64,000 nucleotides of DNA from Ruditapes philippinarum. Lineage: Eukaryota. The notes under the pieces are model-generated. The model did not search any database and was not told the origin of the DNA. It worked only from the letters and a program-made list of their open reading frames with translations. A program made the position numbers and the translations under genes. The number at the start of each line of letters is the position of its first letter. Positions within the stretch are counted from its first letter, which is position 1. Positions 5,231-56,913 of this stretch are shown here, one piece after another. The DNA is taken from NCBI RefSeq assembly GCF_026571515.1, contig NW_026864520.1:1-64000 (forward strand), in the 5' to 3' direction.

Positions 5231-7972
5231 TTTGCCTGTCAGCTCAAATTCATAGTAAAATATATACAAGAATTTTTCGTCGCACAATACAGTACACGTT
5301 GTATTGCTTATAGTATAACCACAATCCCTTGATTTGACCGTACATTGTTCAACTGGTCGGCAGAGTTTTTTTTTTTTTTTTTTTAAATAAATGGCTGTTT
5401 TTTTCAGCATAACATATTAATAAAACGATTATTTATTCCTAAAAATCATTATATGTGTGACTATCTTATAGAATAGCTCCTGTATCTTTAAAAAGTAAAT
5501 AAGTATAGAATTAAGTGACATAGCAATACCGTCTAGCTTTCTTTCATGTAAATTAGTAAAAATAATCAGCAGAAAGAAAGAAATAATTGTACACTGAAGC
5601 ACTTATGTTTTGCTGACAATGCATTTACAGTATACGTATTTAACATAATCGTGTGACCAGACAGATACTTATATATATGAATATTTATATGAATAAGATT
5701 TGCAGTCGAAAATGTAAAAATTGATGAGCTTTTTTTCCGGTTTAAAAAGCTCCTCCAGACGTAAATATCAATACAGAACAATAGACAAATAAAACAACAA
5801 GTCTTTTTACGAGATTAAAGTGTTTTATAATGAAATTACAGAAATATCTCTAGTAATTACATGTCGGCCTTTTATCATCCTTCTTATATGACTAAAGCTA
5901 AATAGTTTCTTAATTTTTTTTTAACATTCTGCAATTAATGTATTAAAGTACATTCGTAAAGTCTGTTTCGGTTGACAAAATTGTCAACGTGACATTATAA
6001 CATTACCGAAATGAACTGAAATTACTTACGTATTACGGCTTGACCTATATTCAAACTTAAAATTGCTGAGCAAGGTAAATAAAATATTTCAGTTCAATAC
6101 AAAAACAAATTGGAAGTGTGTTCCGTCAGACTTCCTATACTTATCCATTAAAACCACGTTAACATGTTACTTTCATTTGTATGACTTGAGTATAAAAATT
6201 GTTTTTTTTTTCAAAGAGCCAAACAGAATTAATACATCTACCATTAATACATTATTCTCTTTCTTCCATTATCTTTAGTGGCACTTCTCGCTGATATTTC
6301 GCAAAATTTGAATGAATCTATGAAAATAAACGAGCATTGATTGCCAATTAAGAAATAGATGTGTAATTAATAAAGATTCTGAAGACTTTGTATCACCATA
6401 CACATCATTTACAATGTATACAGCTACAAGTAATCAAATATTTTCATAAACGTTATAAACAAATATAAACAAAGTTAGTTTCATTATCTTCGGTAGATTC
6501 TCTAAACAGTTGTGACATAGAATCTCTCATTTATTTTACAGATATAAGTATTTAGGATAAACGAAAATAAAATGTTTCGGATTAGAACAAAATATTACAT
6601 GTATGCAGTTTTATACAGGCAGCAATTATTTCTTGCTTAAGCCAATCGCTCTTGAAGGAAATATACAAATATATTTCAGGACATATGCAAACATATTTCT
6701 GTGACATAGAGATTTTATAATCATTCTCTTTCAAATATTTTGTAAACTAAAGGAGCAGGTACTTGTCTTCACAGACTAAAACAATGACTTGAAAAGAAAG
6801 TAATGCCATAGTCATATTTCTAGACTTCGAACAATTCCGGCACAAGTAATTATATTAATCATTTTTTTAACAAGTCTAAGAAACTCTGAACTTATTTTAA
6901 GATATTTCATGTAGAAAATTGCATGTTTAATAATCAATTGATCAATGAATCATAATTTCTGATAAATGTATATTTATCTTCTATAAAAATGAGTAAAATA
7001 TTACTGAATATTATCCGAATATAGTATAAATATAATAAAGAATGCAGATATTTCTCATGAAACTGGGGGATAACAACTCATTCAATTTCTAAATTTTGTA
7101 ATGCATTTATCTTGCATTTCTATTGCTATCAAATAAGTTTCAGATAATTACCACCGGAACAATAATAATTCCAGCAGAATTGAGGAAAATATGTCTTATA
7201 TAAAATATATAATTATTAAATATATAAATAACAGACAGCATCGACAACTATGATGTATTCTTTGCAAACATTTGTGACATCAGGGACAAAAAAACAAAAA
7301 CAAACAAAAACAGTTGTCCCAGGTGACATTAAAGTTTCATGATTCCAGACATTTCAAAATACTAGTATATGAAAAAATGTGCTAAGTTCATAAAAAAAGT
7401 AAAAAGATTGAAGATAAGATTTAAACAATAATTTACATGACATGTTCTGTGCGATTGAAGACTGATTAACCATATTTTGTAACTATACTTCTACTGCGTG
7501 TAATGTGTGACTAACGTAGTAAGGGCTATTTTTGCATATTTTGATCCCCTTTTGGTAATTTAAATGGATTGTAAGTGCCGTATGCAATGTGTTAATTATT
7601 TTGTTTGTTCACTTTACAATATATTACATAGAAAAAAAAACACACATTTTACACAATATTCATGGAAATTAACATGAATTTGGAGTTTTGCTGTTTTAAA
7701 GAAGTGCCCAAAATCTTATGTCAGTCATAAAATTGAAATGTTTTCTTTTACGCACGCAGAAGTTTTTTTTCTTTCTGGAATGACTCCTGATATCGGGATT
7801 TGAATATGGAGATGAAAAAAAAAAAAGCAAAATAATCATACTAAAACTAACAAACAAAATAACGCCGGAAATATGAGATAAAAAGTAACATTTTGGAAAA
7901 AGCTGACGTCATGCTTTTTCCAAAAACCTGATAATAACAATATTTTAATGTTATAGGTGTACTTTTTACAGT

Positions 7973-8077
7973 TCAAGTAAGCACTTCTTTGATTGGAATA
8001 CTTCTTTCTCTTTCAAAAACCGATGCCGAATCTAACACATCAATCAAGAACTCTTCAAATTCAATCATACTTATCAT
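7973..8077 (-). CDS. Candidate 34-aa small ORF MISMIEFEEFLIDVLDSASVFERERSIPIKEVLT
   Basis: Begins 12 nt after predicted acceptor at 8090; intact in paralog 18663-18767 with two amino-acid changes and TGA/TAA stop swap. Upstream ATGs in the predicted leader weaken the call. Confidence 0.15.
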   Translation of the reverse strand: MISMIEFEEFLIDVLDSASVFERERSIPIKEVLT

Positions 8078-8459
8078 ACTTTATAACATCTATGAAGGTT
8101 TGGATAAACATAAAATTAAACTGAAATAATCTTATCTTGATTAAAGTGTAGAAATTTACAGTTTCATAAAGCACTACAGTTTACAAACAAGATGCATCAT
8201 TATACACTAATGCAGTATGATAACTCCATGTTTAACACATGATTTATGCATGATGTAATAGACAAGCAAAGTAAGCAAAATACAAAAATCTAAATAATTA
8301 AATAAAAATGCATAATTATGCTGACCTTTGTTACCACAGCAAAGTATATATTTTATAACGTACCTATTTGTTTCCCGACCCAAATGTTCGGCACCTGATA
8401 TAGCCCTTAAACCTTATAAAATACATACGCGAGCAAACCTTTAACTTTAACTGCTAAGT

Positions 8460-8529
8460 GATCACGCCTTTTTAATTTGAATTTAAATGCTCCACTAACC
8501 TAGTAAGACAGACATGCGAATAAGCTCAC
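8460..8529 (-). promoter_or_regulatory. Conserved promoter-like module P1
   Basis: GATCAC (8460), CCACTAACC (8492), ATGCGAATAAGCTCAC (8514), ~100 bp upstream of a conserved minus-strand splice donor; same order in paralogs. Confidence 0.5.
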
Positions 8530-9160
8530 ACAAAACATAAAAGATAGATGGCGATATCCATATGCAACAAATCTTTAATTCATTTAAAGCTGTTAATTGT
8601 GACCACTCAAGCTGAACTGTTATATATTATTTGATTTTAAAATCTGATTATGAGCATTAATTTGATAAAATAAAACATAAAAAAGATGAAATTGAAATAA
8701 AACACATAAAAGTCCATTATTTATACATGGTATAATTGATACAGCGTCTTTACACTTTTAACTGACCTTGTCGTCAAACTGATACAATTGTACTTTATTC
8801 ATAACGATTTGATCGGTATTATACGTCTTTCTTTGCCCACAAAAAATATATATTAAAGTAACAAAGTATTATTTTAATGAAAAATTGTATTAATGACAGT
8901 TGAATTGATATATAAATTACAATTAAAACTTTGTTGCAGTTGATATATAAACTATAAATTCATATTTAACGATTTTTCTTCAGAAGTAAACTATTAGCAT
9001 GATTAATTGTCTTTGGATCAAGTACAATGTATTTGTATTTTCTTGTCGTTATAATCTAAATTCTGGTATTTGTTTTGTAAATGATAGTTTTATGAAATTA
9101 AGGATAGGTAGACGCTGTCTATTATAATAAACATAAAATAAAACAGGAAAAAGGAAACGC

Positions 9161-14913: not shown

Positions 14914-17045
14914 TTTGGTCTGCGTTGAAAGAATGTTATGAGTATAAAGTCAAGTTACCGACTAGTTGAGGTCAATCTGAGTGTGATATATACAATCAGT
15001 TTGGAAGCTACACATAGCTTAGTTTCGGTTGATGAAATTCTCGTTGTGACTAAGCGGAAAAAATATCTGTAATTACAAATAAAAACTTTTAGTTAAAAAC
15101 TTGCAGGGACAGCAAGAAAACGCACCAAAAAGTTTTATGCAAATATTACTGTTTGATACAAATGTTTTGAATTCACTTTTTTTGTAGATTTACGGATATA
15201 CTTTTCACTTTCATTTATATCCTGTAATTTTGTAAATCATGTTTGAATATATGAAACGTTTATAAGCTATACATAAGATAATATAATTTTTGAATGTTTC
15301 ATCTTTAAATTGAACATTATCTTTATAATATCTATATCCCAAGTTTAGCTAATTTGTGCAAAATCGGAATCTAGGCAAATATGTAGGCATTTGATTGACA
15401 ATTAAGACGAGAAATATATTACTAGATTTTGTAATTTAAGTATCTCTGAAAGATATGAAAGATAAGTACCTTACGAAAGTCAGACGTGGAAATATGCCTA
15501 ACAACCTACGTATTACAATATATTTCATTTCAAAACTCGGGTGTAAGGAGAAAATGAAACAAGGAATTAAAGTACGTAAAACAAACCAGCGGTCCCGTTC
15601 TTAGCCCCACTTTTCGATTAAAATAACTATTTAGGCGTCGGCGATGGTTAACATTTTCGTTAAGGTCTATTTTCTCAGAAAAACTGTAACAACTGTTCAT
15701 TTTAAACTTGGGGTACACGTTTATCGTTATATACGCCATTTCAAAAGGGCAGATAATTCTAAAATTATTTTATGTGCGAAGTTATGCCCCCTTTTCTATC
15801 TTGCTTTTGTTTTACTACCCAGCCTGTCAACTCAAATGCATAGTAAAATATGTACAAGAATTTGTGTCACAAAGAATAATGTACAATACAGTAGAAATGC
15901 AGCCGGTCTATTGCATTTAATATAACCACAACCGCTTGATTTGGCTTAGCAAAGTTCAACTGGCCGGCAGATAAATACCTACGAGTTTTTTTTTTAAAAT
16001 AAAGAGGTTACTATATGGCTGTTTTTACAGTATTACATATTAATAAAACGATTACTTATTCCTAAAAATTCATTATATTTGTGACTATCTTATAGAATAG
16101 CTCCTGTATCTTTAAATAGTAAATAAGTAAAGAATTAAATGACATAGCTAGCTCTACCGTCTTGTTTTCTTTCATGTAAATAAGTAAAAATAATCAGCAG
16201 AAAGAAAGGAATAATTATACGCTGAAGCACTTATGTTTTGCTGACAATGCATTTACAGTATACGTATTTAACATGATCATGTTACTAGTTTTTTCCGGTT
16301 TAAGATGCTCCTCGAGACGTATACATCAAAACAAAATAAAAGACAAATAGAACAACATGCCTTTTTTACGGGACTAAAGTCTGTCATAATGAAATTACAA
16401 TAATATCTCTAGTAATTCCATGTAAGCCTTTCATCATCCTTCTTATATGACTAAAGCTAAATGTTTTTTTTATAATTTTAACATTGTGCAATTAATGCAT
16501 TAAAGTACATTCATTAAGTCTGTTTCGGTTGACAAAATTGTCAACGTGACATTAGAACATAACCAAAATGAACTGAAATTACTAACGTATAACTTTAACA
16601 CCCACTTGACCCATATTTAAACTTAAATTGCTGAGCAAGGTAAATAAAATACATATGTTAAATACAAAAAAAAAAAAAAAAAACAAATGAAAGGGTAGTT
16701 CGGCTGACGTGACATTATAACATAACCCAAATGAACTGAAATTACTAACATATTGCTTTTACACCTGCTTCACACATTTCTAAAGTTAAAATTGCTGAGC
16801 AAGATTAATATAATATTCCTCTTCAATAAAGATTTTTTAAAAGGGTGTTTGGTCAGACTACCCATATTTTCCCATTAAAACCACAATACCGGGTTACTTT
16901 TATCTGTATGACTTGAGTATAAAACGTTATTGTTTTATCAAAGAGCCAAGCAAAATGAATACATCTACCATTAATACATTATTATCTTTATGCCATTATC
17001 TTTAGTGGCAATTCTCGCTGATATGATGCAAAATTTGAATGAATC

Positions 17046-19180
17046 TATGAAAATAAACGAGCATTGATTGCCAATTAAGAAATAAATGTGTAATTAAAAA
17101 AGGTCCCGAAGATTTTATATCGACAAACACATCATTTACAATGTATAAAGCTACAAATAATCAAATATTTTCTTAAAAGTTATAAACAACTATAAACAAA
17201 GTTGCTTTCATTACCGTTGTGACATAGAATCTCTCATTTGTTTTAGAGATATAAGTATTTAGGGTTAACAAAAATAAAATGTTTCGGAGTGAAACGAACT
17301 ATTATGCAGTTTTTATGCAGGCAGCAATGATTACTTGAAGGGAAATATACAAACATATTTCATGACATATGCAAACATATTTCTGTGATATAGAGATTTT
17401 AAAACTATTCTCTTTCTAAATTTAAACTAACATTTTGTAAGCTAGAGGTAGCAAGTACTTGTCTTGACAGACTAAAACAATGACTTGGAAGGAAAGTAAT
17501 GCCATAGTCATATTTCTAGACTTCACAAGTTATTATGTTAATCATTTTTGTAACAAAATTAAGAAACACTGAACTAATTTTAAGATATTTCATGTAGAAA
17601 ATTGCATGTTGAATAATCAATTGATCCATCAATCATCAATAATTTCTGCTAAATGTATACTATTCTTCTATAAAAATGAGTAAAATAATACTGAATATTT
17701 ACCGAATATAGTATAAATATAATATAGAATGCAGCTATTTCTCATGAAACTGGTTTGAATTATGGCATTTACTAAACGGGGGATAACAACTCATTCAGTT
17801 TCTTAATTTTGTAATGTATTTATCTTGCATTTCTATTGCTATCAAAAAAGTTTCAGGTAATTACCACCGGAACAATAATAATTCCTGCAGAATTGAGGAA
17901 AATATGTCTTATATTAAACATATAATTATTTAATATATAAATAACTGACACCAACGACAACGATGATGTATTCTTTGCAAACACTTGTGACATCAGGGAC
18001 AAAAAAACAACAAAAACTTTCGTTCCAGGTGATATCAAAGTTGCATGATTCCAGACGTTTAAAAATATATGAAGAATATGCTAAGTTTATAAAAAAAGTA
18101 AAAAGATTAATGATTAGATTTGAACAATAATTAACATGAGATGTTATGTGCGATTGAAGACTGATTTACCAGTATTTATAACTATACTTCTACTGCGTGC
18201 AGTGAGTGACTAACGCAGTTAAGGCTATTTTTGCATATTTTGATCCCCTTTTCGTAATTTACATGGATTGTAAGTGCCGTCTGCAATGTGTTAAATATTT
18301 TGTTTGTTCATTTTACAATATATTACATAGAAATAAAACACATTTTTCACAATATTCATGGAAATTATCATGAATTTGGAGTTTTGCTGTTTTAAAGAAA
18401 TGCCCAAAATCTTATGTCAAAAATTTTTAATGTTTTCTATCACGCATGCAGAAGTTTTTTTTTCCATTTGGAATGGCTCCTGATATCGGGGTTTGAATAT
18501 GGAGATGGAGAAAAAGCAAAATAATCATACTAAAACTAACACACAAAATAACGCAGGAAATATGAGATAGAAAGTTACATTTTGGAAGAAGCTGACGTCA
18601 TGATATTTCCAAACACCTGACAAAAACAATAATTTAATGTTATAGGTGTACTTTTTTACATTTTAAGTAAGCACTTCTTTGATTGGAATACTTCTTTCTT
18701 TTTCAAAAACCGATGCCGAATCTAACACATCAATCAAGAACTCTTCAAATCTAATCATACTTATCATACTTGATAACGTCTATGAAGGTTTGGATAAACA
18801 TAAAATTAAACTGAAATAATCTTATCTTGATTAAATTTTAGAAATTTACAGTTTCATAAAGCACTGCAGTTTACAAACAATATGCATCATTATACACTAA
18901 TGCAGTATGATAACTCCGTGTTTAACACATGATTTATGCATGTTGCAATAGACAAGCAAAGTAAGCAAAATACAAAAATCTAAATAATTAAATAAAAATG
19001 CATAATTATGCTGACCTTTGTTAAACTAGCAAAGTATATATTTCACAACGTACCTATTTGCACTTACTATAGCCCTTAAACCTTATACAAAACATACGCG
19101 AGCAAACCTTTCACTTTAACTGATCACTCCTTTTTCAATGCTCCACTAACGTGATAAGACAGACATGCAAATAAGCTCAC
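17046..19180 (-). ncRNA. Putative spliced transcription unit P2 (paralog of P1)
   Basis: GATCAC 19122, CCACTAAC 19143, perfect octamer ATGCAAAT 19165-19172; donor AATAG|GTACGT at 19053; downstream acceptors and GTAAAT donor retained as in P1. Confidence 0.38.
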
Positions 19181-38719: not shown

Positions 38720-39010
38720 AACAAGAGGCCGATGGACCTTGAGGGTCACCTGCATATTCTACAAAAGATAATACAAGTTTTATGTATATATCTCAATTTG
38801 AATAAATGTCGTTAAATAATATGTATAATATTATATTTGCATAATTACATTCTCTTCCTTGGCCTTAGCCATAAAAACAAAGGGGTCATGCATCCTCAGT
38901 TTCAGGGACTCCCAACTTGTTGAAACAAGAGCTATCACTAAAGTTGATTTAAATCCCCTACAGCAACAATGACCATTTAGAAATTCAAGTGGTCTGAATT
39001 AAAATTTTCT
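38720..39010 (-). mobile_element. HINE-like fragment (paralog at ~46950-47490)
   Basis: AACAAGAGGCCGATGGACCTTGAGGGTCACCTG terminus typical of molluscan HINE 3' ends read in reverse; the longer paralog has GTGACTCTTGATCC and CCTTGACCTT core motifs. Confidence 0.6.
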
Positions 39011-39011
39011 C

Positions 39012-41100
39012 AAATTCATTGTTTTCAAATTCCGGGAACTGAATATCGAAAGCCTATCTGGTATGTCACAGAAGGGAAATATTCAAATCACACATTGAAG
39101 GGAAAACAACGGGAAAAGCTGCTTTGCTTTCATATGGTGACAAGAAGAATCTGTTATTTAAGGATAAACATATGGCTAATCACTCGACTCCAGACGGTGA
39201 TATTGCAATTAACGATGGACAAATTACCAATTTTTGAAAGACATATATACAAGTAGTATTGAAAGACTGTATAAAGAATCTTTACGTTTTGAAAGTCTTT
39301 TTAGCATCCTTCAATGATATGTTGCATGCTTATTAAGCTAATTATGTTATGTTACAAAATTATATTAAACTCTAGCCTTCTTATAATAATTTGCCAAAAT
39401 AACTAATTTTAAACATAACAAGATATGAAGAACTTTGTTGCAAAATATGTACTCACTTAGTTGAAGTGAAATTCCCATTACCTAATAATCATAATTTACG
39501 ACCGGTATCGAGAATAACGTCTGCGAAGAGTTAAAAGCATTTCATATAATGATTATCCAAGCAATATTGTTATGTATGCAACATATTACATATATATATA
39601 TGTATATAATTTATATCTGACCAGTTGGTATTTCCAATATTATCATTGTTCTATTTTTAGAACATAAACTACATGTATGTACTAGAACGTTCTTAACTGT
39701 TGTAGAAAACTCATGCATTATATTTAGATAGAAATTTCTGGAATGATCTTTATTGGTGAAGTTGCTAGATTATGATTACTGTAGTAAATGGAAGACTATT
39801 CTAGAAACTTCTTAGTTAATATATATAAGGAGACATTTTTCATTACTTTTACCTTTTAAGTCATCAGTGATCTTTTAAGTCATTAGTTACCTTTTAAGTC
39901 ATCAATATATTTGGAGTATTATTCGACTTGGATATTAAGTGATTTATTGGAGCTTGGATTATTTTAAAATAGTTAAATTTATTTTATTGTGGGAATTTAT
40001 TCTAAAGTGTGCTTGGATTTAACTTGGATTTTACTGTGCTATTCAAAAAGGGATCATTCCAGGATCAGACTAGACATTAGGTTTTACATTTATATTTGGA
40101 CTTCAGGTATTTGTACACATAATTTGTTGTTTTAATTTTCTTTATTAACTTTTCTGTAATAAATGTGTTATTGTTACAAGTTTGGTGCTGGCTTTTCTTT
40201 CTCGTTACGCCTGGCTCGTAACAATATAAAAGTATAATTAGGTTCTCATGTTTTAAGTATTTACCCCAGACGCATTAATTAAATATAAAGATGGTCAAAA
40301 TTACATTTTTGAAAGGAATAAGTGTCTCTTTTTTCTAACAAAGTATGGAAATTAGCCAACTAAAGTACTTGAACATATGGCATCAACACTCCTTTATTTT
40401 TAATTTGCAAAGATTATCTTAATTTGTTTCGCTTGTAGAATCTTGCAATTTTATATAATGGCATATAATAAATTAATAATGTAATAATGTAATTAATAAT
40501 GTAATGTTATTGTAAATTAATCTGACTAATAAATTCTTATTATAAATTACGATAAAAGTTGTTGATGAATTTATTTAGCAATTAAAAATAAAGAATTAAA
40601 ATGTGGTAATTTGATATAGTTATGTGGTAAATTTATCTATCTTGTTACTAGTATTAAGAAATTCTGTTTAAATATTTTTACAAATTCAAAATTGCACAAA
40701 ATCTACAGCAATTAATCGAAAATAAATAAACAAGAATGATACTATAATACTATAAAAACAAAATGATATGAATAATTTACCTGGTTTCTGTTAAAATTGA
40801 GAACATGTAAATATGAAAGCAAGAATGAAACAAAATCTATATCAAGTAATAACAATTGTTGAAATAGTTAAACATACACGAATATATATTACACACGCAC
40901 CTGTTTGTGTCCAAGTTAAATGTTAATCTGCTACTGTATAAAATACTTGTCTGTCATAGATATATACACAATCAAACGATGTCCGAGTATATATACCCTT
41001 AACCTTATTTTATATATACTATTTAAGGAGATCACGTCCTAAATGTAAGGTGTTAACACCCCACTAACCTAATCAGACCTTAATGCAAATTAGCTTTACA
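39012..41100 (-). ncRNA. Putative spliced transcription unit P6 (chimeric paralog of P4, exon 3 truncated)
   Basis: Perfect octamer ATGCAAAT 41083-41090, CCACTAACC 41061, GATCAC 41030; donor AACAG|GTGCGT at 40900; 56-nt exon 40781-40836; donor CCAG|GTAAAT; acceptor AATAACAG|ATTCTTC at 39151. Confidence 0.42.
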
Positions 41101-44100
41101 CGAATACAAACGATGCACAAGGTGCAAAATACAATATTTTATACCCTTTATTGAATGTTAATCCCTTTATTTGAATGTTAAGTGCACTTGAGTATAACTT
41201 ATAAAGGTTCAATGGTAATTTAAGAATGTCCTTATCTTCTTTAAAATGATCGCTCAATATTTCTAAGATAAAAGTAGCGCTACCTCAAGGACGTTTTTTG
41301 GTTTCTCTAACTATTCAGACATAAAATGTAAAGCAAGATAGAAATCTAGTTCTACTTCAAACATGTAGGAAAATGTTAAACTTATATGAACATTTTTACT
41401 ATTCATCTATTGTTTATTGCCGCCACAATATGTAAAATTGCATCTTAGTCCACCAAAAAGAGCATATTTAATAAAAATATGACATGCTTAGTTCAATTTA
41501 AAAAAAGTTTATATGCACTGACATTTAACTCCATGCATATGTTTACACCTACTTTATTTATAACATGTTAAGCTCATAAATACAATTATAGAAAAACCAC
41601 GTATTCATTAAAAGATTGGTATGTTTCTATTGCAATGATTTATAAAACCAATATTAGCTGGATTTCGTTCAGAAAATCTTTCATCTATCCTATTAGTTTC
41701 AAAGACAAAATCTTTATCATTATGATATACTTTGTAAACTATATTATTGAAATGAATCAAGTCTTGTTTGTAAACCCAGTTTTCAAAGTGATAAAGAGAT
41801 TTATATAATGAAATGTCAAAGCATCTTAAGAATCAAATCACATATTTAAGTTATAACCTCATATATTTCATCCGATTTTATCACAAATTTAATGTTGCTA
41901 TCAGAAAGAAAACTTGTAAAATTGAATTGAACTACTTTTGCAAAATCACAAGATATTTATTGTTGAAAAACGATATATTCAAATTACTTAAAATGTTTTA
42001 ATATGATTCTTTTAAAAACCGATTTCTAAATTATTTTAATTAAACATATCGATAAGACTATAACTATTGTCGTGAATTTTCTATAAAAAAATAACCATAT
42101 GGCGATCATTTTTACTATTATACTGAAATGATCAGTCTTAACATATTTTAGTATAAACTACATTGTATTATTGAGATAACTATTAAAGAGAAAAATAAGC
42201 ACAATTCTGCTACTATTTGTCCTTCTACTAACGTGAATTCTATAATCTACAATCTTAAAGATATTTTTAAACTTTTTATAAAACAGATGACATCATATTT
42301 ATGATTAAAACAAATGACATTTTATTAGTATATCTTATACATAGGAACGAAAACCAAGGCGGCAACTATCAAAATTGCGGATGAAAAGTCCTACAATTGC
42401 AATTTCAAAATTCTACAAATCATATCGTAAAATCAACAAAACAAGAATAAAACGATTTACTTTCTTTTATGAATAGGAACAAATTGATGGGATATCGCAC
42501 AGCTTGAAATAAGTATGGTTTTGTCCAGTCTGTTTAAATTTCACTTAAGACCATAACAATATTTTATCTATTTAGATATGTTGTTACTTGTTAAATTTTA
42601 ACGATATTGGTTTTAAGATGACTTGGCATTTCTACGTGAAAATTATCTTTTTTTTCTGGATAAAAGGCAGAAAAGTAAATAAATCAGAATTCTCAAAATC
42701 TTTTCTTTATCATGTCGTCATACATGTATTTAAATCATACATAAATGCAATACTTTAAATGACATTAAAGATATTGAGAATAAAAAAATGGATAGAGTTT
42801 TTTAAGGAAACATCAAGACACTTAACGAACAAACAATACAAGTTTATGAGTCAAAACTGCTCCGTGATTTATTCGACTTTCAAAAAGTGAATTTTGCAAT
42901 ATAATATACATAATTATGCAAGTTCTAATAAAGATATATTTTATCATATTACAAACAATTATATTACCTACCACCTACTTTATTTGCACATAATATTGAC
43001 TTTATTTTCAATTAAAAGATATTGACACACTTAACTTGCATTTTGAAACTAATCATGTTAGCAAATCGCAACTTATACTGACCATTGCGAAACGAAGTAC
43101 GTTAATAAGGTACATATATTTCTTTATTTTGATCAGATTGTGACCATGGTTATAAATTAATTATCGTGTCAACCTTTTTTTCAATTGTTAGTATCTCTTA
43201 TACATCGTTCTTGAACGTCATTGTGCATGATCATTAAGCGAATTGTTTACAAAATTATCATAAACTCTAGACTACTGACAATAATATTTTTTCAAATAAT
43301 ATCTTACAACATAACAAAATTTGAAGAACTTTGTTGCCACAAAAATACTCACTCTGTTGAAAAGAAAATCCTGCCATTTTATAGACAATTATAATATTTG
43401 TAAGATAAATAGCTTAGAAAGAATTCATGAGGATAAAATGTTTCATATTATGGTAATCAATATATTAGAAAAATGATGAAGTTCTTAAGTTTTAAGTATT
43501 AACTTCAGACGAATTAATTAAAATATAACGAACATTTTTTAAGGGATTAGTGTTTCTTACTATAACAATGTATCGACATTAGCTAAACAAAAATCTTTGA
43601 ACACATGGTACCAACGCACCTTTATTTTTTAAATCTCAATGGCGGTTTTTAAAATGATATCTTAATTTGTTTCGCTAGTAGAAACTGCCAATGTGATATA
43701 AAGACATATACTAATGTATGCTGTGGTTTTATTGGTTCAATAAAAACGTATCTAATCTAAGATACAAGTTTTTGATGTATGGATTAAGTAATTTATGATA
43801 CAAAAAGTTAAAATAGTATCATTTGAAATATTCTTGTTGCAAATTTCTGTTTCGGAATTACCAAAGTATAGTATTGTAAAGAAAGTTTGTTTACTCATCA
43901 AACATTTTAAAATACAACACAATCTAAGTATTTGCCGTGCTCGATCTAGTCTGTCATAATTATATACACGATCAAACATTATATATGCACACTTATAACC
44001 TAAAATTACTATATTTAGAGATCACGTCTTCAAGTTAAACTAAAACACAAATAAAGAAGAATCCCACTTAAATACTTGTCAACTGTTGTTTTATTTAAAT

Positions 44101-47100
44101 GTTAAAAGAACTTTAAACAAACCAAAAAAAAATATAAAAAAGAAACACGGGCAGAGAACGATTTTTTATCATTGGAATTTTGACAAATAGAACAATAACG
44201 CGCTTATTGCTACACGTTATTTCACATACGAGCGTACACGTTTATTTCTACCATACCGGATTGGATTATTGATATATAACATCACGTACTCATTTGAAAA
44301 ACATTCAAATAATTATATGTAGGTACTGACTTAACATAAACTATTTCTAAATTATATCAAATCACATTGATGAGGATTTAGGAAAGATTTTGAAATGTCA
44401 ATATAGATGATTGTACTTGACAGCAGGTTGTTTTTATTTTTGCTTATTAATTTGATATTTTGATATAAAGTCCAACTTTAAAATCCTAACAGTATATAAT
44501 GAACTCTGCCTTTGCCTTGTAAATGATTATAATATAAACTTAAGAAAAGGAACATAACACTCACTGTTAATCTATCGCTAAAATACGTTTTAATGTATCT
44601 GGTTGCAATAGAGATAGAATTTGTTATTTGAACATCTTTACGTGCACCTAATGAAATGAATGTTTTTTTTAAAGAGTTTCACCTTTGACGCCTAAAATAT
44701 TTCAAAAATGAACTTTTATAGAGTTCATTTGACATCTATTGCTTATTTGGTGCAGCTTAAGAATTACGAAAAGCCAGTGGGCATTGATTGACAATTAAGA
44801 CTAGAAATATAAAACTAGATTTCTAATTTAAGAGTCTCCTTAGACATTATATCACCTGCTACCACTAAACGCATTTTACAAGTTGATTGGAAAGTAATGC
44901 CAATGTCATAAATACACTCAACAATCCATCTTACCATGGTATAAATGAATATGAGATATGAGAATGAACAAAATAGGCTCATAATTAACACTTTCATTTT
45001 ATAAGAATAGTAAAATGTGTAAAGCAAAAACACCCAAGCCCCGACCAAAACAACAACAAAACAATAAAAAACAAAAACAAACAAAACAAACCCAGACCCA
45101 AGAAACATTGCTGAATAAAAATTAACCTTGTCAAAGTACAGATATTTTAAACATTGGAAAATAAGTATATCATACGATGCAAACTATTTAAATGATATAT
45201 GTGTACAAAACCTTTTTGAATTTACGGAATAAGGAATAAGGTATACAAAGACTATAGTAATACTAACATATGTGTGCCGGAATTATTTTTTTACAAGATG
45301 TTAAAAGCCACGAGCTTCAAAAATGAATTTCTATAAACATGAAGAAAAATGAATACCAAATTTTAGTACGCTGAATGGTGGCATCGAAAAGAAAATGTAC
45401 ACAGGACTGAGGTCCTCCAGATTAGACAGCCAAAAAAGACTCAACTGAACCAAATAGTTAAAGGCCTATTCAGGCGTTCCCTTTTTCTTCTTTTTTACCG
45501 CTGACGATATTTCAAAAACAACACACAATGATAAATTTGTTATCTTTGATATTAATCATCACTGTTTCAAAGATAATTTTCTTTTTTTCGGTGTAGGACA
45601 GCATCATATATGTATCTTACTTCAAATTCAAATCTTTGATATTTTCTTACCAATTTCATCTACAATTCTATTTATTTGGTAAAAGAAATTGATACAATAT
45701 ATCAATTTATGCATATAAATTTATTGATAGATCACAAAAATTGTTTGTATATGAGAATTATGTTAAATCATGCTTGCGTCTTGAAGATTTGTTGAGTCTT
45801 TTTAAATATTACTTCTGGCCAAACCTATGTTTTATTGAGTTCAGATGTGTTGGTTATTGTAACAAAAGTTGCAGTATTGATGTAAAAATAACTGTGCCAG
45901 TCGTTGTGAAAATGATCTTTATTTTGATCATTATAGCCAGAAAAGTAAATAGTTTATTTGTAGTGATAATTATTTCATACAAAACCGCAATACATTTAAA
46001 TGGCATTATAGATATTAAGATAAAAAAGGAGATAAGTTTTATAAGCAAACATGAAAACAATCTTAAAACAAGCAATTTAACTTACAAGTTGAGTTTATTT
46101 TCATACATATATATAATAAACAGAAATTTTATAAGATCACACACAGTAATATAAGCACTTTTTTATTCGATCAAAAATTTATTTTCAATCAAAATCACAT
46201 GGACACACTAAATACGCCCCTAATTTACTTCATCGCTTAAGCTTAAACATACATCAGCATTATGTTAATATTATTTCTTGAAATGATTAAGCTTATCTGT
46301 ACATAATAAAATTCGAAGATGTGCCTTAAAAAGTATCTGCACGGTCTCATTTAAAAGGAAGTGTGTTTTGAATTTCAAACAATCATCTTCTTGTCAAATT
46401 TATGAGGGTTTATTCTACTGTAAAACAGAACTAGACTGTATTTTTATATTCTAGTATTTCTTTATGTGTTATTCACCTTTTTGTACCTAGATAAAAAATG
46501 TAACTACTTGAATATTGACACAAGCCTTTGGTCTTGATCTCATATATTTTCGATCAGTGACCCATTCGATGTTATAATTGTAAATCTTGTTTAAATCGAA
46601 TTACCATGGTCTTGTGAAACACAATAAAGACGCTTACATTGTATTATCGGTTTCTGTCTACTTAACACATATAGACATTAAATAGGTCATTTTGCTTCAG
46701 GGAGATTTTCGTTCTGTAAAAACATATAACAAAACATAAAATTCGGAAAAATGTAAAATCCCTGATTTATACAATAATGACATATTTGATTTATTTTTAT
46801 CATTGACAATTTGATTCAACCATATGTCACTTAAATTGTTGAAAGTACAGAAATATTGAATCTGCAACATTTTCTACAGCCATCAACTTATTTAAAGCAA
46901 CCTAATCTACACAACTTTTATATTATAAAGGTTTCCCTGAGACATTGAGGACATTAAAGGTCACCTGCAGATCCTACATAAGATAATACAAGCTTTATTT
47001 GTATATTTCAATTAGAATAAATGTCTTTTAATAACATTATGTATAATATTATATTGTGCATAATTACATCCTCTCCCTAAAAAACAAAGGGGTCATTAAG

Positions 47101-47860
47101 GACTCCCTACTTGTTGAAACTAGAGCTATCACTAAAGTTGATTACAATCCCCTCCAGCAACCTTGACCTTTTGGAAATTTAAATGGTCTGAATTAAAATT
47201 TGTCTCAACCTATAATTCACGAAGTATCAACTGTGTTAAATAATTCTCAGCTAGTGTTATCCTCAAGAAACATTTTGTCTATATTTAGTAACAGTGACTC
47301 TTGATCCCATGGTGTCCAAAAGCAACTAACACCGGGGTCTTCATACAAGCTTGCCAAATACAAATATAATTATAATATGTCATTATACACTCTAGTTATT
47401 GTCGGGAAAACATTTTTTCTTTTTTTTTAAATGGTTACCTTGATCCAAGTGGGTCAAAAAGCGAAAATAACCACGTTTTCGGACTAAAGTTAGCGTGTCA
47501 AAAATATTATCCATTGCTAGAAGTATATAAGTCAAATATTTGGAAATTATGCCTAATGTACATCTTTCATGATAACCAGGCAGGGGTTTAAAACAATTAA
47601 GAAATTTAGTACTTTTATACATATTCATTATTTTCCAATTCCGGAAACTAAATATCGAAAGCCTATCTTGTATGTCAAAGAAACACATTGAAGGGAAGGC
47701 AACGGAAAAAGCTGCTTTTGCTACAATGATTTCATATGGTGACAAGAAGAATCTGTTATTTTAAGGACAAACAGATTGCTAACCACTCGACTCCAGACGG
47801 CTATATTGCAATTAATGATGGACAAATTACCAATATTTGAAAAACATATATAGAAGTAGT
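39250..47860. repeat. Tandem segmental duplication 2, copy B
   Basis: Colinear with 30580-39250 except for the solo LTR insertion and replacement of the 32870-35110-homologous segment by 42200-43175. Confidence 0.88.
39568..40223 (+). mobile_element. Solo LTR (656 bp), probably Ty3/Gypsy-type
   Basis: TGTTATG...CGTAACA termini; 4-bp TSD ATAT (39564-39567 and 40224-40227); TATATAAG ~39822 and AATAAA ~40158; empty site GCAATATAAAG at ~30894. Confidence 0.9.
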
Positions 47861-48700
47861 ATTAGAGGATTAGAAAAGTAATTTCTTCCATTTGTTAGTA
47901 TCTCTTATACAACGTCTTTGAGTGTATTTTAGCATGATCATTAAGCTAATTGTATCATGCTTACAAAGCAATCATAAACTCAAGCCTTCTTATCATAACT
48001 TGTCAACATAAATATTTTAAAACATAACCAGATACGAAGAACTTTGTTGAAATATAAGCACTCTCTTTGTTGAAAATAAACCCCATAATTTTAAAGTCAA
48101 GATAATAATTTTATTGCTGGACAGATAGTAAAAATATCATTATGAAGATGCAAAACATTAATTTACTTTTTATGATAATCATAGCAATAGAAAATAATGA
48201 GGCTCTCAAGTTTTAAATTCTTTACTTAGACGAATTGATTAAAATATAACGATGGCCAAAATGCTATTTTGTAAGGAATTAGTGTTTTCAATATAATTAC
48301 AAAATATAGAAATTATCCAAACAAAAATCCTTGAACACATAGTACTATCGCTACTGTATCACCTCAAGTCTTAAGGTTAAGGGTATCTTTATTTCGATAG
48401 CAGAAAATATCAACTGTGATATAATGACATTAACTTAATGTATTCTATTCTGTGGTTGTATTAGTTCTATAAATTCGTACTTAAACTAAAATGAAAGCTA
48501 CCTACGGACAAATTAAGCACTATCATAGTAATAAAAAAAAAACAAACAAAAAACATTAATATTTGAGATACAAATGTACTTGTGTTGTAAATGTCAGTTT
48601 TTCAATTGCCAAGCTATAATTAAACCTTATTCATATTTCAAAATTCAACATTCTATGAAATTGGTCGTGCTGGACCCCGTCCTCTCTACAATATAAAAAC
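47490..48700 (-). other. Further paralog of P4 exon 3 plus intron, promoter module deleted
   Basis: Acceptor AATAACAG|ATTCTTCTTGTCACCATATG at 47753; 47490-47752 aligns with 30220-30465; at ~48700-48760 sequence jumps to a homolog of 32360. Confidence 0.7.
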
Positions 48701-49942
48701 CGAATTTTCATTTTTCATGTCAAGTTTTCTACAAATGAAATAAATGATTTAAAAAAATCTTCATCTATGCAATTAGTTTCATATCAAACACAAACTGATA
48801 TTTTATCACTATGAGATACAGTCTGAATGGAAACTTTAATATTAAAATGTTTCAAGTATTTCGTGTGTGTATATATATCAAATTGTCAAAGTGATAAGAT
48901 TTTAAAAATCAAAATGTCAAAGGATCTGTTAGAATCAAATATATTCTAAACATCTTCTTTAGTCCTAACCTCATATATTTCATGTTGTTTAATGACGTAT
49001 TGAAATAATGATATTGGAAAGGAAACGTATTAAATTGAATTGTCCTGCTCTTGTAGACATAAATATTCTATCTTTCAACATTTCATAACGTCTATAGCCA
49101 ATTAAATTGCTATACTTTGTGTTAATAAAACGAAAAAAGCATGAGAAGGAATGAACAGCAGCGATAAAAAAGAATGTTTTTTGTGAATGCAAATTTTGAC
49201 TTAATGAACAATAACTTGCTTAATGTTACACCTTATTAGACATAAACGTTTATTTTTAATGACATATCGACAAATAAGTGTATCAAAGTAATTCCATCAC
49301 GTGCTCATTGTTGTTAATATTATCGTATGTAGGCGTCTTATTATAAGACTGGTTTAACACCAACCACTATAAAACATATCTATTAACTTTTGAATTTATC
49401 TATATATTATAGCGGACTATTTTGTTATTTCCTTAACCGGTTCGATATCATTTCTATATCTAACATGTTTTTTTTACTTAACATAAACGGAGTTTGTACC
49501 ACGCACTCATATATACGCAGTGGAAAAGAAAATTGTAAACACTAAGTTACTTTGTAGTTTGTTTGATAATTTTATTTACACCATTTGTTGTCGACATATT
49601 TTTTTTTTAGATTTTTCGTTCACTCCGTGCTTCCAGAATAATTAGTCCACTTATAAAATACGATTTTCAATTTGTTTCTGACGACATTTCCTAATGTTTT
49701 TGGCATATTAATCTTCCTGTTTAACTGTCCCAGATGATCTATGTAAGAAATTCAAATTTTATATTTTTAGGTTCTGCACCACAGTGGAGTTTCCTTGTAA
49801 AACTTGCTCACTATTAAGGACAAAGCAAGCCAGTCAAGCACCTTCCAAAAGTCCCTGTTTCCTTCAATTATACTATCCATCAATGAGAAAAGTAAAAACC
49901 ACCAAAACTGGTAGCAGTTAGAATAGAGGAGTGTTTACTTAC

Positions 49943-51995: not shown

Positions 51996-54179
51996 GTTAA
52001 TGTGTAAATATAATAATAATATAAATAAAAATTATGATTAAACTTTACTATTTTTTTCTGTTAAATGCCATAATCTTGGTTTGTTTAATGTGGTTAAGAG
52101 TTTTATTCTGTATTTTGTAATTTATAATGTAAAATGCAGTTATCTAATGTAAAATAAAACAAACAAACACACATTATAATGTCAAACATAATACTTTTTT
52201 TTCAATTATTTTATCGTGCACAATGTTTTACTATCTAATGTGACATAGCGGGGATAAACTCTAATCTTTAAAAAGTTTTCAATTGAATTGGTCGGACAAT
52301 TAATACTATGTTTAATCTGAATCGCCTTTAAATGCAAGTTAAAACGATCTTTTAGAATTATATTATGTTATTTTCACATTTTTACGAGACGTATTTTTGG
52401 TTTAATGAATATGAATGTGTTTTCTTTTCTAACAGTTGCACCTTTGACATCAAAGACATTTTAAAAATGTACTTCCATTTCACAGCTATTGCTTACTTGA
52501 TGCAACTTCAGAAAGGAGATACACCAGTGGACATTGATTGACAATTAGACTAGAAATATAAAACTCAGATTCTAATTTAAGAGTCTCTTTAGACATTGTA
52601 TCACCTGCTACCACGGAACACATTTTACAAGTGCATGGGAATATAATGTTAGAGTCATTGTTACACTCAACTTTCCATCTTAATATAATGTTATAATGTT
52701 ATAAAACTATATGAGATATTCTAATGATTTCATAAGTAAAACTTTTGTTTTCTTTGGTAAGAAATATATAAAAAACATACCCAAATATACTCAAACTACA
52801 ACAAATAAACGTACCGAATGCTTGTTTTGAATAATATATAAATTGAAGGCCTGCTCAGGCATTAACTATTTCTATCCTTTGGACTGCTAACGGCATATTG
52901 AAGACACATGTAAGAAAAACAGGAACATACTAGATATTTTTCCAACTTGTGCAATACCACTTATGTTAAGTGAAAAAACAACAACAGCGTACTTTAAGAT
53001 AAATGTTTGAAGCAAATGATAAATATATACATGCAACAAACATTTATGTTATATGTTTCTGATATAAAAAAACATCATTAGCTGTTTTTCTTCTTCATTT
53101 ATAAAAATAAATTCATGGTTAGACGAAACAATAGAAATAAACCCAAGTTTAAAATTACAAATGTGCTTGATAATGGGAATTAAATGTATTTCTGGAAAAA
53201 AAATCAAAAACAACAAGGCATCATGAATAGATTTTTAGTCCTATTACATTCTCGAGGGATCTGGCTTACAGAGAAAAATAATCCTTAAAACACGTTTGTG
53301 CTTTGTAAAATCTGTAAACCATCTCCTGATGTTTATCTCAATTTTGTTACTTCTTTCTGGTTCCTCGGGATAACTGATCCTAACATTTCAGTGGCGAATC
53401 AGGTTTTTAATTTAAAAATTCGAACCTAAAGATTATTCACAATCTCAAAATTTTTTTTGTGCTGAAAGACTTTCGTTTTGAGAGTTTTTGAATAAATTTC
53501 CTTTGTTAGATCTATGATACATGCGTGTAAATTAAAAAAATAATTAATAAATAGAACTGTCAAAATATGTGAATTGATATTATTTTGTACATATAACTGC
53601 AGAGTATTTTTTCTTGCTTTCTTGCTTATCTCATTTTTTATTTATTGATTGTGGTTTAATCATTTATGGTAATAAACACTAAGGAGTTTTTTTGTTTTTA
53701 ATAATGTCGGCTACATTATTTAAAAAAACAACGAAAAAAAAAACCTCACCCTGCAAATTAAAGTATATTAAATTTTGACACGTCATTTTTACTGACCTAC
53801 CTCGACACATCAATATTAGACTGTTGAATACCACTTCCCTTTATTTTAAAGCAGTAGGCACAATAACAAATAATTGTTTTCTTTTCTTCTAAAGAACGAG
53901 CAATATGTCTTATTCACGCTAGTTATGAGTTATGTTTAAATAAAACGCATTTTAGAGGAATATTACTATACAAATGCAATATAAATTGTCATTAAAGTAA
54001 AGAAAGTGCTTTTTGACTTTCATACAAACTAGTTAATTACTTTCACTGTACTATATGCTCGGCAGAATTGTTTGGCTATATGGCAAATGAGATATTTTGG
54101 ATATTGTATTTAGAGTTTTATGGGTTTTAAGTCTAGACAATTTTTTTTTATTCAGAATATCATATTTGAAAATGCAGTG

Positions 54180-54295
54180 TGCATTACCTACTTACATAAT
54201 CCGAATACTATGCAAATAAGCTCAAACAAATGCACGTAGTAACGACAGGTAAAGATTAACAATATTTGTTATGACTTTATAGCACTTGACTATAA
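54180..54295 (-). promoter_or_regulatory. Divergent promoter-like module P8
   Basis: ATGCAAATAAGCTCA at 54210 (identical to P2) and GCACTTGACTATAA at ~54282 (cf. GCACTTGAGTATAA at ~31885 and ~41184). Confidence 0.4.
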
Positions 54296-56913
54296 CCACA
54301 AACCGTACATGATTAAATATGAAAAGAAAATTATATTTTTCTATTGGCATTTTTTCAAGCGAGAAAATGAAAGGAAGTTTCAGTCAAGGATAAAATATAT
54401 CAAGCTTTATGTTTTTTTTGTTTGAGGATTATATTTCTTTTTAACATGAAGCGCACATGATTCATTTGTCTGAATTTGAGTTCAATTAAATCTTAAGTTT
54501 ACATTAATTTAGTACATCGATTAATTGAAATACTGAAACCGTTCTTAAAACATAGGATTTGACAAAAAGTTTCTTTTGAATCGTTTTCTGTGTTGACAGA
54601 TGCATTGTTCAAAAGGACAAACTGGCGGAAAAACAGCAAAATACTATACCAAAAACGCAGTTGGTTAATTCGATATATTTGTTTCAAGCGAACTTAAATT
54701 GCAGCAGATAATTGTATAAACATTTTAAGTATTCATAACTGAGATAACACAATTGTTTTCGTTTACAACTAATGTTAATTCAATTTTTGGTTAATGTCTT
54801 CACAGTAAGACATTATTCTTCTTAATTATTCTATTTTGCTATCAAAGAAACACTTTTACTCTCCGTTGTACGACAGCATCATAATTGTACCTTATCTTTG
54901 ATCTTTTTTCACCAGTTTTCTTTCTGAAATTATATAAATCCTATGCAATGTTTCAGTGCATGCAGGTAAATATATGAATAATTCATATAAACTGTCTACA
55001 TAAGCATAATGTTAAAATTAGCCTTCGCTTTGAAGATATGTCTAGTCTATTTAAATTTCACTTAAAGCAGCATGCCAGCAGATTCATGCTAATGTTTATA
55101 TTTTTTAAAAGTATTTTAAAGTAAAATCTTGACAAATCACGGATTTATATTACAATATGTAATTTAAATCCGTGGTCAAATGAACAAGGAAAACAATACG
55201 AAACATTAGATCTACGTTATTTTCCAAACATAAGTCAGAATATGCAAAAACAGTTCTTACTGCATTAGTCACGAAGTTGAAATATTGTTGATAAATACTG
55301 CATAATCAGTCAGTAATTGCATATAAAATCTACTCGTCATTATTTCTTAAATTGTAAATATCTTTACTTTCCTTTCAATTTTAGCGCATTTTTCTCATGT
55401 TTTTACATTAATAATTAAGCTCATCTGTAGGTATGAAGACCATAGCTTTGGTTTATAGAGATAAGATTTTTTTTGTAACTGACAAAAATAGTGTAGTTTG
55501 ATTTTACGACATTGATGTAAAATGGCTGTTATCTATAAATAGTCAATGATTTAAGCTTGGTTTTTGCCCTGTAAATTTCAGAAACATGTCGTCGATTATT
55601 TAAATTAGATTTTCAGCAGACGATGTTTATATTATATTTGATTTTGAACACTGTACATATTTTAGTGTTATTTTTTTATACATTTATGTATATATTTTAA
55701 AGAGTTTTCTTTATGGCGGCAAGTCCGTGTCATTTTATCACCAGATGCACTGTTCTCTAATCGATCAGTAGTTATTTAATTTAAAGTTTCCGTGAGCATG
55801 ACTATGGTCACAGTTAAAGATGGATTGGTCAATGTTAGTCTCGGGATAGTATAAAACAGAATGTAAATAGCACAGTTGTTTATTTACTCGAAATTGTATG
55901 ATTATATAAATTTATTTTTCACATCTTCTGGTCTATGTTTTCTTATATTTTTTCGGTAATATTTAAAAAAGGTGGAACAATCACTGATGAAATGCAAGAA
56001 CGATTAAATAGCTTATGTGACATTTTTCTTTTACACATTACAATTAAACAAATAAAATTTCATCTTAAATTATTATAGAACCCAGTCTAAAATTAGCCAC
56101 TTTTCTGTTTCCAGAGACCAAACAACATCCATATCAATAGCATATCATAACCTATATAACCGTGGTCCAAAATATCTTTTCAAAAGCATATCGTTCTACT
56201 TTTCGCTTCATTTTCATTTCAAGGTAAAAATATTAGAGCAATATCTGATTGTACCAGAGTCAAAATTTAAAAAACGGAAAAGAGAGAAATAGGAAGCAAT
56301 TATGCATTTACAAAATTGACTGTACACATAAACAAAGCCTACATAAGAGCCTCGTCCAATATGTTTGTGGCAATTGTGTACTTGTCCATATGAATACAGT
56401 TTTGTATTCAACAATATATCGTAACCTTATAATATAAATATCAATATCTATGTCAATTGCAATAAAATTGCTTTTCCATTTCACTCCAATTTTTAATTGT
56501 AAAAACATGCAGATACAGTCATTCTGACATAAACATGTTTTAAAGTGTTTATTTATGAGATAATGTAACAAACAGATAATAGGCCATATAATCATTATGA
56601 TACAGCGTGCAGTAAATCTGAATACCAGATTAAAGTCAGTTGTTATATTTGCTAAAAATATCACAGACGTTCGTGACTTAAAATGCATTAGATGGTATTC
56701 GGTTTAAAAGCATGAGACATAGTATTTTTGAACGACACCAGCATTTTATTCAAAACACAATAAGGTCATGCAAATATATCTTCTTTTTGTTAAAAACATT
56801 TACAAAAAAGTTGTCAAACAAGAGTTTACATGTTTTGTTTAATATTATTTAATAGTTATTTGATTGTATTGTTCTTATGATTTAATCGTCCAAATTTTAA
56901 ACTTATAAAACAA

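What the first reader, a model, noticed from the sequence alone, without database searches (positions are those of the whole stretch)
6318..54300. Hidden tandem family of ~8 minus-strand, spliced, apparently non-coding transcription units sharing one promoter/splice architecture
Seen: a module GATCAC...CCACTAAC...ATG(C/T)(A/G)AAT(A/T)AGCT recurs at 8460, 19122, 31731 and 41030, without the octamer at 27350, and partially at 35964, 44020 and 54210. Five copies are followed 70-140 bp downstream (minus strand) by an AG|GT(A/G)CGT donor (8363, 19053, 27210, 31600, 40900). Four then have a 64-74 nt intron ending AG|ATTTT(T)G and a later GAAAC..|GTAAAT donor. The bodies downstream fall into two families (P1/P2/P3/P8 and P4-P7) that I cannot align to each other, and none has a conserved ORF. 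Inference: promoter and splice signals have outlasted the exon bodies. That pattern is known for piRNA-precursor genes and some lncRNA families, and would also fit an array of alternative 5' ends for a gene left of the window or a heavily decayed gene cluster. ORF-based annotation would miss it entirely.
Basis: partly seen in the sequence, partly recalled or inferred. Interest (0 to 1): 0.8.

Follow-up and report, generated by a model that had tools for sequence, protein, structure and literature searches.

The report
Decaying tandem array of non-coding genes
About nine old, side-by-side copies of one gene-like unit keep a shared promoter and splice signals but show no protein code; several copies are broken and none was clearly active in the RNA samples checked, so it looks like an ageing family of long non-coding RNA genes whose job is unproven.

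Summary
The motifs, donors and short introns are at the stated places. The module occurs only here in a 1.4 Gb genome (5 hits, control 0). Nested tandem duplication gave about nine units plus one headless piece; five keep promoter core and first donor. No protein signal appeared: no codon bias, frame-breaking indels, no database hit. No conserved RNA fold appeared either. Across old lineages the signals are better kept than their flanks. In young pairs (about 10% diverged) they are not, so present-day selection is not shown. Four RNA-seq runs of unknown tissue laid on 26-46 kb gave depth 0-1 on unit bodies and no predicted junction among the joints shown. Strand skews fit past minus-strand germline transcription. 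Best reading: a birth-and-death array of spliced lncRNA-like Pol II units, narrowly expressed or now dying (about 0.5). The piRNA reading is untested (about 0.13). Interest 0.36.

The parts
8455..8530 (-). P1 promoter-like module (octamer variant ATGCGAAT, GTTAGTGG, GTGATC)
   Evidence: promoter role inferred
8290..8363 (-). P1 predicted intron 1 (74 nt, TAG|GTACGT ... TTTAG|ATTTTTG)
8090..8159 (-). P1 predicted intron 2 (70 nt; weak donor ACT|GTAAAT)
6318..6353 (-). P1 F element core 6335-6353 and acceptor-like TAG|ATT ending 6318
15371..15407 (-). F element and acceptor of a headless copy (duplicate of the P3 3' part)
17045..17080 (-). P2 F element core and acceptor
18780..19053 (-). P2 predicted intron 1 (18980-19053), exon 2 and intron 2 (18780-18849)
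19117..19180 (-). P2 module (canonical ATGCAAAT)
23764..23800 (-). P3 F element core and acceptor, about 2.2 kb from the P3 module once the LINE is subtracted
   Evidence: assignment to P3 inferred from order and spacing
24536..25815 (-). LINE fragment with A37 tail inserted in P3, in the same sense as the units
   Evidence: RVT_1 E 2.2e-10
27210..27400 (-). P3 module without octamer, exon 1 and donor CAG|GTACGT
28571..31343 (-). P4 body: blocks b, c (acceptor ending 30466) and d; non-coding by all tests
31344..31600 (-). P4 intron 1 (31537-31600), exon 2 (31481-31536), short intron 2 (31344-31480)
   Evidence: no junction row
31726..31800 (-). P4 module (octamer variant ATGTAAAT)
32911..36083 (-). 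P5: module remnant (35956-35968), no first donor, block b with donor AAG|GTGAGT at 35546, repeat insert about 34364-35057, block c 32911-34186
36557..40702 (-). P6 body: block b with insert 39568-40221, cut block c (acceptor 39151), d, e, and F core 36599-36620 whose AG is lost
40703..41100 (-). P6 module (canonical ATGCAAAT), intron 1 40837-40900, short intron 2 40703-40780
42520..44131 (-). P7: module remnant 43946-44038, no first donor, block b with donor at 43619, part of block e
44742..49055 (-).
52403..54222 (-). P8: octamer plus degenerate GTAAGTAG remnant 54188-54222, no matching first donor, F core 52532-52549 whose AG is lost

Best explanation
One ancestral RNA polymerase II unit on the minus strand was multiplied in place by repeated unequal crossing-over. 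SHOWN: the paralogy, nested duplications from about 70% to about 90% identity over older barely alignable ones, confinement to this locus, and the lack of coding or fold signal. INFERRED: each unit had a compact promoter (octamer-like site, GTTAGTGG, GTGATC, AT-rich start region), two or three short 5' exons split by 64-137 nt introns, and a later acceptor behind a conserved 19-nt element (branch point and/or homeodomain-type site). INFERRED: the product was a spliced long non-coding RNA, and selection acted on being switched on and spliced in the right cells rather than on exon sequence. The array now goes through birth and death: P5, P7, P8, P9 and the headless piece have lost core signals; P1, P2, P3, P4 and P6 keep promoter core and first donor and may still fire in a narrow tissue or stage (germ line or early embryo most likely), or may be recently dead.
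For: Locus-only module and F element. Deep conservation: best 20-column windows hold 17, 14 and 14 invariant columns against maxima of 12, 11 and 9 in 60 unrelated sets each; F-core identity 0.65-0.97 against about 0.3-0.6 in flanks of deep pairs. A coding exon under selection over the same time should be the best-aligned part between families, and none is found (inference). No codon signature: 11 of 164 blocks at p<0.05, best frames 17 plus and 16 minus among p<0.2; 77 of 421 indels are multiples of three, 187 are single bases. No protein hits. Strong donors 15 minus vs 7 plus (matrix from recalled frequencies). Minus-strand T>A and G>C skews of 0.034 and 0.041 over 39,444 unmasked bases against 0.004 and 0.002 in the rest of the contig, fading near 50 kb; that direction is the one recalled for germline-transcribed sense strands. 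Human lincRNAs show mostly splice-related constraint (PMC4245815, abstract).
Against: Four RNA-seq runs from four studies laid on 26000-45999: bins without repeats have summed depth 0-1.0 in X6 (1.9 in the bin at 27334-28000) and 0-0.12 in X8, X12 and X13; none of the predicted junctions is among the 15 joints shown, and 11 less supported joints are hidden. By a rough scale 1 TPM gives depth 0.4-0.7. In young pairs the signals are no better kept than flanks, and deep-invariant module columns are kept at 0.91-0.98 against 0.95-0.98 in a body control block. Skews of like size occur elsewhere in the contig (10-kb values -0.11 to +0.14), also cover spacer DNA, and come from non-independent copies. 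Flanks are not fully saturated between lineages (mean invariant 0.24-0.27 vs 0.14). No start site, polyA site or function is shown.
Confidence: 0.5

Rival explanations
1. Relic of a tandem cluster of protein-coding genes with multi-exon 5' UTRs (for example small fast-evolving secreted proteins); the coding part has decayed or been deleted and promoter and UTR splice signals are what is still visible.
For: The architecture (short 5' exons, late acceptor) is common in coding genes (recalled). Many copies are broken, and recent constraint is absent. Longest frames free of shared stops lean to the minus strand: 7 of 11 blocks at p<=0.14 against 3 of 11 on plus, lowest p 0.04. A 122-codon open frame starts at the P9 acceptor. 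Some lncRNAs are fossils of coding genes (PMC5577775, passages).
Against: No codon or indel signature. The P4 frame has 7 stops per 200 codons where simulated sequence reaches 3-4, and three of its stops are shared with the P5 copy at 77% identity. Zero hits at E<=0.001 among 1.84 billion proteins; no paralog elsewhere in the genome (best E 0.24 and 0.21).
Confidence: 0.2
2. Uni-strand piRNA precursor genes: each unit makes a spliced Pol II transcript that is cut into 24-32 nt piRNAs in gonad or embryo.
For: Fast-turning-over bodies behind a kept promoter, and few transposon pieces (9% of 4896-55500 hit by copies elsewhere in the contig, a lower bound), resemble mouse pachytene precursors, described as Pol II, spliced and TE-depleted (PMC9114089, passages). 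Oyster clusters are stage-specific (PMC6128900 section 9), so absence from bulk RNA-seq would not be surprising.
Against: No small-RNA data were seen. Oyster clusters hold 30-38% transposon sequence; here there is little, and the largest LINE piece lies sense to the units. A-MYB control is described as amniote-specific, and the module was not shown to be a Myb site.
Confidence: 0.13
3. Array of alternative promoters and 5' UTR exons that splice to a constant coding region beyond the left end of the contig (variable-first-exon design, as in protocadherin or UGT1A clusters; recalled).
For: All units face left and the window begins at base 1 of the contig. The minus-strand skew continues into 0-10 kb and over spacers. 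It would explain kept promoters with no coding exon in any unit.
Against: Each unit carries its own later acceptor (F) instead of ending in one donor. No Pfam hit in the two longer minus-strand frames left of P1. A host gene should leave 5' UTR reads; almost none were seen on P3-P7.
Confidence: 0.12
4. The conserved pieces are DNA elements only (a duplicated enhancer battery); the splice-like sites are by-products.
For: The F core persists in three copies that lost the AG. It reads as TGATTGAC plus TAAT on the plus strand, like TALE/homeodomain sites (recalled). RNA is nearly absent.
Against: A donor at a fixed place in three lineages and matched short introns in two are hard to get without splicing.
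Confidence: 0.05

Closest known systems
Spliced lincRNA genes under splice- and promoter-level constraint (PMC4245815, PMC3975061; abstracts seen)
   Same: No coding signal, no fold constraint, conservation in small patches at promoter and splice sites, likely narrow expression.
   Different: Here about nine paralogs stand in tandem, and the comparison is among paralogs in one invertebrate genome; transcription is not shown. PMC4245815 notes that the human pattern is not seen in Drosophila, and PMC3975061 reports much splice-site turnover.
Mouse pachytene piRNA precursor genes (review PMC9114089, passages seen)
   Same: Pol II-type units with introns, few transposons, fast-changing bodies, clusters that can duplicate.
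   Different: No piRNA reads seen; no A-MYB site shown; the units are 2-5 kb with tiny first exons; the host is not an amniote.
Mollusc piRNA clusters (PMC6128900 section 9; bioRxiv 10.64898/2026.07.10.737777 passages)
   Same: The host is probably a mollusc (inferred from AT-rich DNA and flanking fibrinogen-domain and TNF genes); clusters can be one-directional and stage-specific.
   Different: Those clusters carry 30-38% transposon sequence and are defined by small-RNA reads; the passages read describe no repeated promoter module.
lncRNAs that are fossils of protein-coding genes (PMC5577775, passages seen)
   Same: Gene-like promoter and splice skeleton with no open frame.
   Different: No parent protein could be found here, in this genome or in the databases.
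Variable-first-exon arrays such as clustered protocadherins and UGT1A (recalled, not read)
   Same: Tandem co-oriented units, each with a copy of one promoter element.
   Different: Those variable exons are long and coding; no constant region is identified here.

Membership tests
lncRNA gene family | Transcribed as RNA longer than 200 nt | tested here: inconclusive
lncRNA gene family | No protein-coding potential | tested here: met
   one weak contrary lean
lncRNA gene family | Constraint on promoter and splice signals above flanks | tested here: inconclusive
   Met between old lineages; not met in young pairs
piRNA cluster / precursor gene | 24-32 nt reads with 1U bias and phasing or ping-pong | not testable with these tools
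   No small-RNA library among the 24 runs listed
piRNA cluster / precursor gene | Transposon content at or above genome average, antisense-biased (mollusc and fly type) | tested here: not met
   9% hit by dispersed copies within the contig, a lower bound; largest LINE piece is sense
piRNA cluster / precursor gene | A-MYB-bound promoter (pachytene type) | not testable with these tools
   No binding data; described as amniote-specific
Pseudogene cluster of a protein family | Recognisable protein homology or codon-patterned divergence | tested here: not met
miRNA or snoRNA host array | Conserved hairpin or box motifs, Rfam match | tested here: not met
   Rfam none at E<=1, only sub-threshold hits in two sub-regions; 0 consensus pairs; z from -1.08 to +1.07 in 14 folds
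Dispersed transposon or LTR family | Copies at many genomic places | tested here: not met
   All matches in this window; the tool warns that counts are lower bounds
Variable-first-exon array | Splicing of each unit to shared constant exons | not testable with these tools
   The contig ends at window position 1

The most novel reading that the evidence does not exclude
An invertebrate multigene family of germline- or embryo-specific Pol II piRNA-precursor (or other regulatory lncRNA) genes, each with its own copy of a dedicated promoter code (octamer + GTTAGTGG + GTGATC) and a conserved intronic element: a pachytene-like gene design reached independently outside amniotes. The module would then give a direct handle on the factor that turns such precursors on.
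Probability: 0.12. Interest if true: 0.75.

Novelty: new member of a known kind. Interest (0 to 1): 0.36.

Why it matters
If the five intact-looking units are active, the array is a natural experiment: many paralogs of graded age show which bases a non-coding gene must keep, and they name two short cis-elements to test by reporter assay. If they yield piRNAs, it would give a defined promoter for invertebrate piRNA precursors. If they are silent, it is an ordinary dying cluster, of note only because ORF-based annotation misses it.

Tried and rejected
Decayed type II membrane enzyme in block c (stop-poor frame, hydrophobic stretch): dropped after and the shared stops. Signal-peptide-like frame after the 15371 and 23764 acceptors: no hit in the genome or the protein set (the latter covered only proteins of 55-175 residues); left as a weak lead. 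Short ORFs in P1/P2 exon 3 (34 codons) and in block b (about 37 codons): read by eye, changes mostly non-synonymous. miRNA, mirtron or snoRNA in the F element or exon 1: no fold. Plus-strand reading of CCACTAAC as a branch point with an AG 8 nt later: considered by eye; the spacing is too short and no frame follows. Two genome patterns were mis-spaced and matched nothing, not even the window; they carry no information. The first tblastx was swamped by the 24-bp satellite and was redone on a masked window. A six-frame read-through Pfam scan of whole units returned no result; in its place 89 of the 93 minus-strand stop-free frames of at least 52 codons were scanned (three of the other four were, one lies in the LINE), so frameshifted remnants shorter than that were not scanned. 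The test is biased toward ancestral states, as its control shows. The acceptor-retention test had only 3 strong sites. Model R1 was built but not used. Earlier scan notes: nothing.
Full report
SETTING. The window is bases 1-64,000 of a 637,856 bp contig of a 1,408 Mb genome, about 30% GC. Further along the contig lie a fibrinogen-domain gene and a TNF-family cluster. From this I infer an invertebrate, probably a bivalve; that is inference, not a tool result.

OBSERVATION. The full module has 4 exact matches in the genome and a looser pattern has 5, all in this window, with controls at 0. DNA searches with unit bodies hit only this window; the tool warns that such counts are lower bounds. Profiles of the module and of the second element found no further copy in the whole contig, apart from one hit at E 0.38. 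This is a local family, not a dispersed repeat and not a general promoter type.

ANATOMY. Self-alignment shows nested tandem duplication. The block 4896-15450 matches 15467-23870 at about 80-89%; P4 matches P6 at 83% and P5 matches P7 at 89% by BLAST; older pairs in 28-49 kb match at 66-77%. In family B the minus-strand order is module, short exons, then blocks b, c, d, e, f, and each copy has lost different parts. A ninth unit (about 44.7-49.1 kb) lacks the module. P5 and P7 lack the octamer, CCACTAAC and the first donor. The two families do align at the 5' end: a P1/P2 profile hits P4, P6 and P3 at E 1.6e-6, 7.4e-5 and 3.5e-4. A second shared element, missed in the first stage, has a 19-nt core TCTTAATTG(T/G)CAATCAATG. 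It occurs in 7 places (6353, 15407, 17080, 23800, 36620, 44800, 52549) and is followed by TAG|ATT in 4 of the 7. It lies 1.7-4.4 kb downstream of a module and ties P1/P2, P3, P8 and family B to one ancestor. P8's copy groups with family B.

IS IT CODING? No test says so. Of 421 indels in 25 overlapping paralog alignments, 77 are multiples of three and 187 are single bases. A frame-wise synonymous-change test flagged 11 of 164 blocks at p<0.05 and 2 at p<0.01, with no strand preference. The stop-poor frame in block c is not unusual and shares stops with its 77% paralog. Read through with X it had no hit at E<=0.001 among 1.84 billion proteins and no paralog elsewhere in the genome. The 122-codon frame of P9 found nothing. 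Pfam found only a LINE reverse transcriptase and a transposase among 16 frames, and two sub-cutoff hits among 89. One result leans the other way: frames free of shared stops are somewhat longer than shuffled on the minus strand (7 of 11 blocks at p<=0.14, against 3 of 11 on plus). The blocks overlap and the shuffle ignores dinucleotides, so I give it little weight.

IS IT A STRUCTURED RNA? Rfam gave nothing. Consensus folds of the F element and exon 1 have no pairs, single folds have z between -1.08 and +1.07, and a hairpin scan showed none shared among units.

SELECTION. Between old lineages the signals stand out: 17, 14 and 14 invariant columns in the best 20, against at most 12, 11 and 9 in 60 unrelated sets each. 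F-core identity is 0.65-0.97 against about 0.3-0.6 in flanks. Flanks keep some residual likeness. In young pairs the excess is gone: module 57/65 vs 0.893 and 73/80 vs 0.897, strong donors kept 15/22 vs 1525/2034, and deep-invariant columns no better kept than in a body control. P1/P2 exon 2 is better kept (124/129, p 0.004), but so is the next intron (69/71), which points to a regional effect such as conversion. These young-pair tests have little power.

TRANSCRIPTION. Four RNA-seq runs from four studies, tissue unknown, were laid on 26000-45999. Deep piles fall only on repeat pieces (about 26.58-26.66, 28.37-28.41, 34.36-35.06 and 39.6-40.2 kb), from reads that mostly run on unlike the window. 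Other bins have summed depth 0-1.0 in X6 (1.9 in the bin holding the P3 module) and at most 0.12 in the other three. X6 shows small local rises in the bins holding the P4 and P7 5' ends (0.87 and 0.85), a handful of reads that the output does not resolve. No predicted junction is among the 15 joints shown; 11 are hidden. On a rough scale this is at or below about 1-3 TPM in one run and below about 0.3 TPM in three. P1 and P2 were not tested. Base skews give indirect support for past transcription: on the minus strand T>A 0.034 and G>C 0.041 over the array, against 0.004 and 0.002 elsewhere, fading near 50 kb. The direction fits germline transcription (recalled), but like values occur elsewhere in the contig and the copies are not independent.

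HOW IT MOST LIKELY WORKS. A compact promoter starts Pol II leftward shortly before the first donor; two or three small exons are spliced; a later acceptor follows the F element; the RNA is non-coding. Selection kept the switch and the splicing while exon text drifted, and unequal crossing-over kept adding and breaking copies. The paralogy, decay and lack of coding signal are shown. Promoter function, splicing, tissue and purpose are inferred. The main argument against a plain pseudogene cluster is that coding exons selected for as long as the promoter motifs should be the best-aligned parts between families, and none exists; fast-evolving peptide genes are the exception I cannot exclude. Odds: lncRNA-like birth-and-death array 0.5, coding relic 0.2, piRNA precursors 0.13, alternative 5' ends of a gene beyond the contig end 0.12, DNA elements only 0.05.

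COMPARISON WITH WHAT IS KNOWN. It works like lincRNA genes whose constraint is mostly splice-related (PMC4245815, abstract and section list; PMC3975061, abstract and opening text). It resembles mouse pachytene piRNA genes in being spliced and poor in transposons (PMC9114089, passages), but the defining small RNAs were not testable. It does not meet the transposon-rich profile of oyster clusters (PMC6128900, passages and section 9; zebra mussel preprint 10.64898/2026.07.10.737777, passages). Coding-gene fossils are the other near kind (PMC5577775, passages). Searches listed no description of such an array; without a species name that is weak, and no supplements were read.

VERDICT. New member of a known kind; interest 0.36. 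The boldest reading left open, a pachytene-like precursor gene family with its own promoter code in an invertebrate, has probability about 0.12 and would deserve 0.75.

Noticed in passing
window 10301-11887 and 20913-21277: 24-bp minisatellite, 66 and 15 copies; the larger gives a 536-codon stop-free repeat frame on the plus strand, probably a by-product of the repeat unit
   Followed up: no
window 37457-38400 vs about 45700-46600: Block at 94-98% identity inside a duplication that is 81-92% nearby, suggesting recent gene conversion; it holds plus-strand open frames of 184 and 153 codons with no Pfam hit
   Followed up: partly
window 7891-7925 and 18593-18600: Palindrome TGACGTCA (CRE-like, recalled) in both P1 and P2; in P1 it sits in the loop of a 13-bp inverted repeat
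   Followed up: no
window about 60100-62300: GC-rich stretch with a broken DDE_Tnp_4 transposase (E 8.2e-8), likely a Harbinger-type DNA transposon
   Followed up: partly
window 26578-26660, 28372-28406, 34364-35057, 39568-40221: Repeat pieces that draw hundreds to thousands of RNA reads from elsewhere in the genome, so these repeat families are common in transcripts
   Followed up: no
window 55730-63492 vs L014 6102-9077: A separate old tandem duplication (69-84%) just right of the array, unrelated to the module
   Followed up: no
window 15003-15317 and about 23400-23710, minus strand: Broken frame after the F acceptor that begins with a basic then hydrophobic stretch, a little like a signal peptide; both copies share a stop; no homologue found
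   Followed up: partly
L035-L043 (contig about 210-288 kb): Tandem cluster of minus-strand genes that look like TNF-family ligands; one exon confirmed as PF00229
   Followed up: partly
L028 2332-3018: Fibrinogen C-domain exon (E 2.7e-58), about 80 kb right of the array; a synteny anchor
   Followed up: partly
L029-L030 (contig about 153-158 kb): Long plus-strand frames that read like gag and pol of an LTR retrotransposon, judged by eye
   Followed up: no
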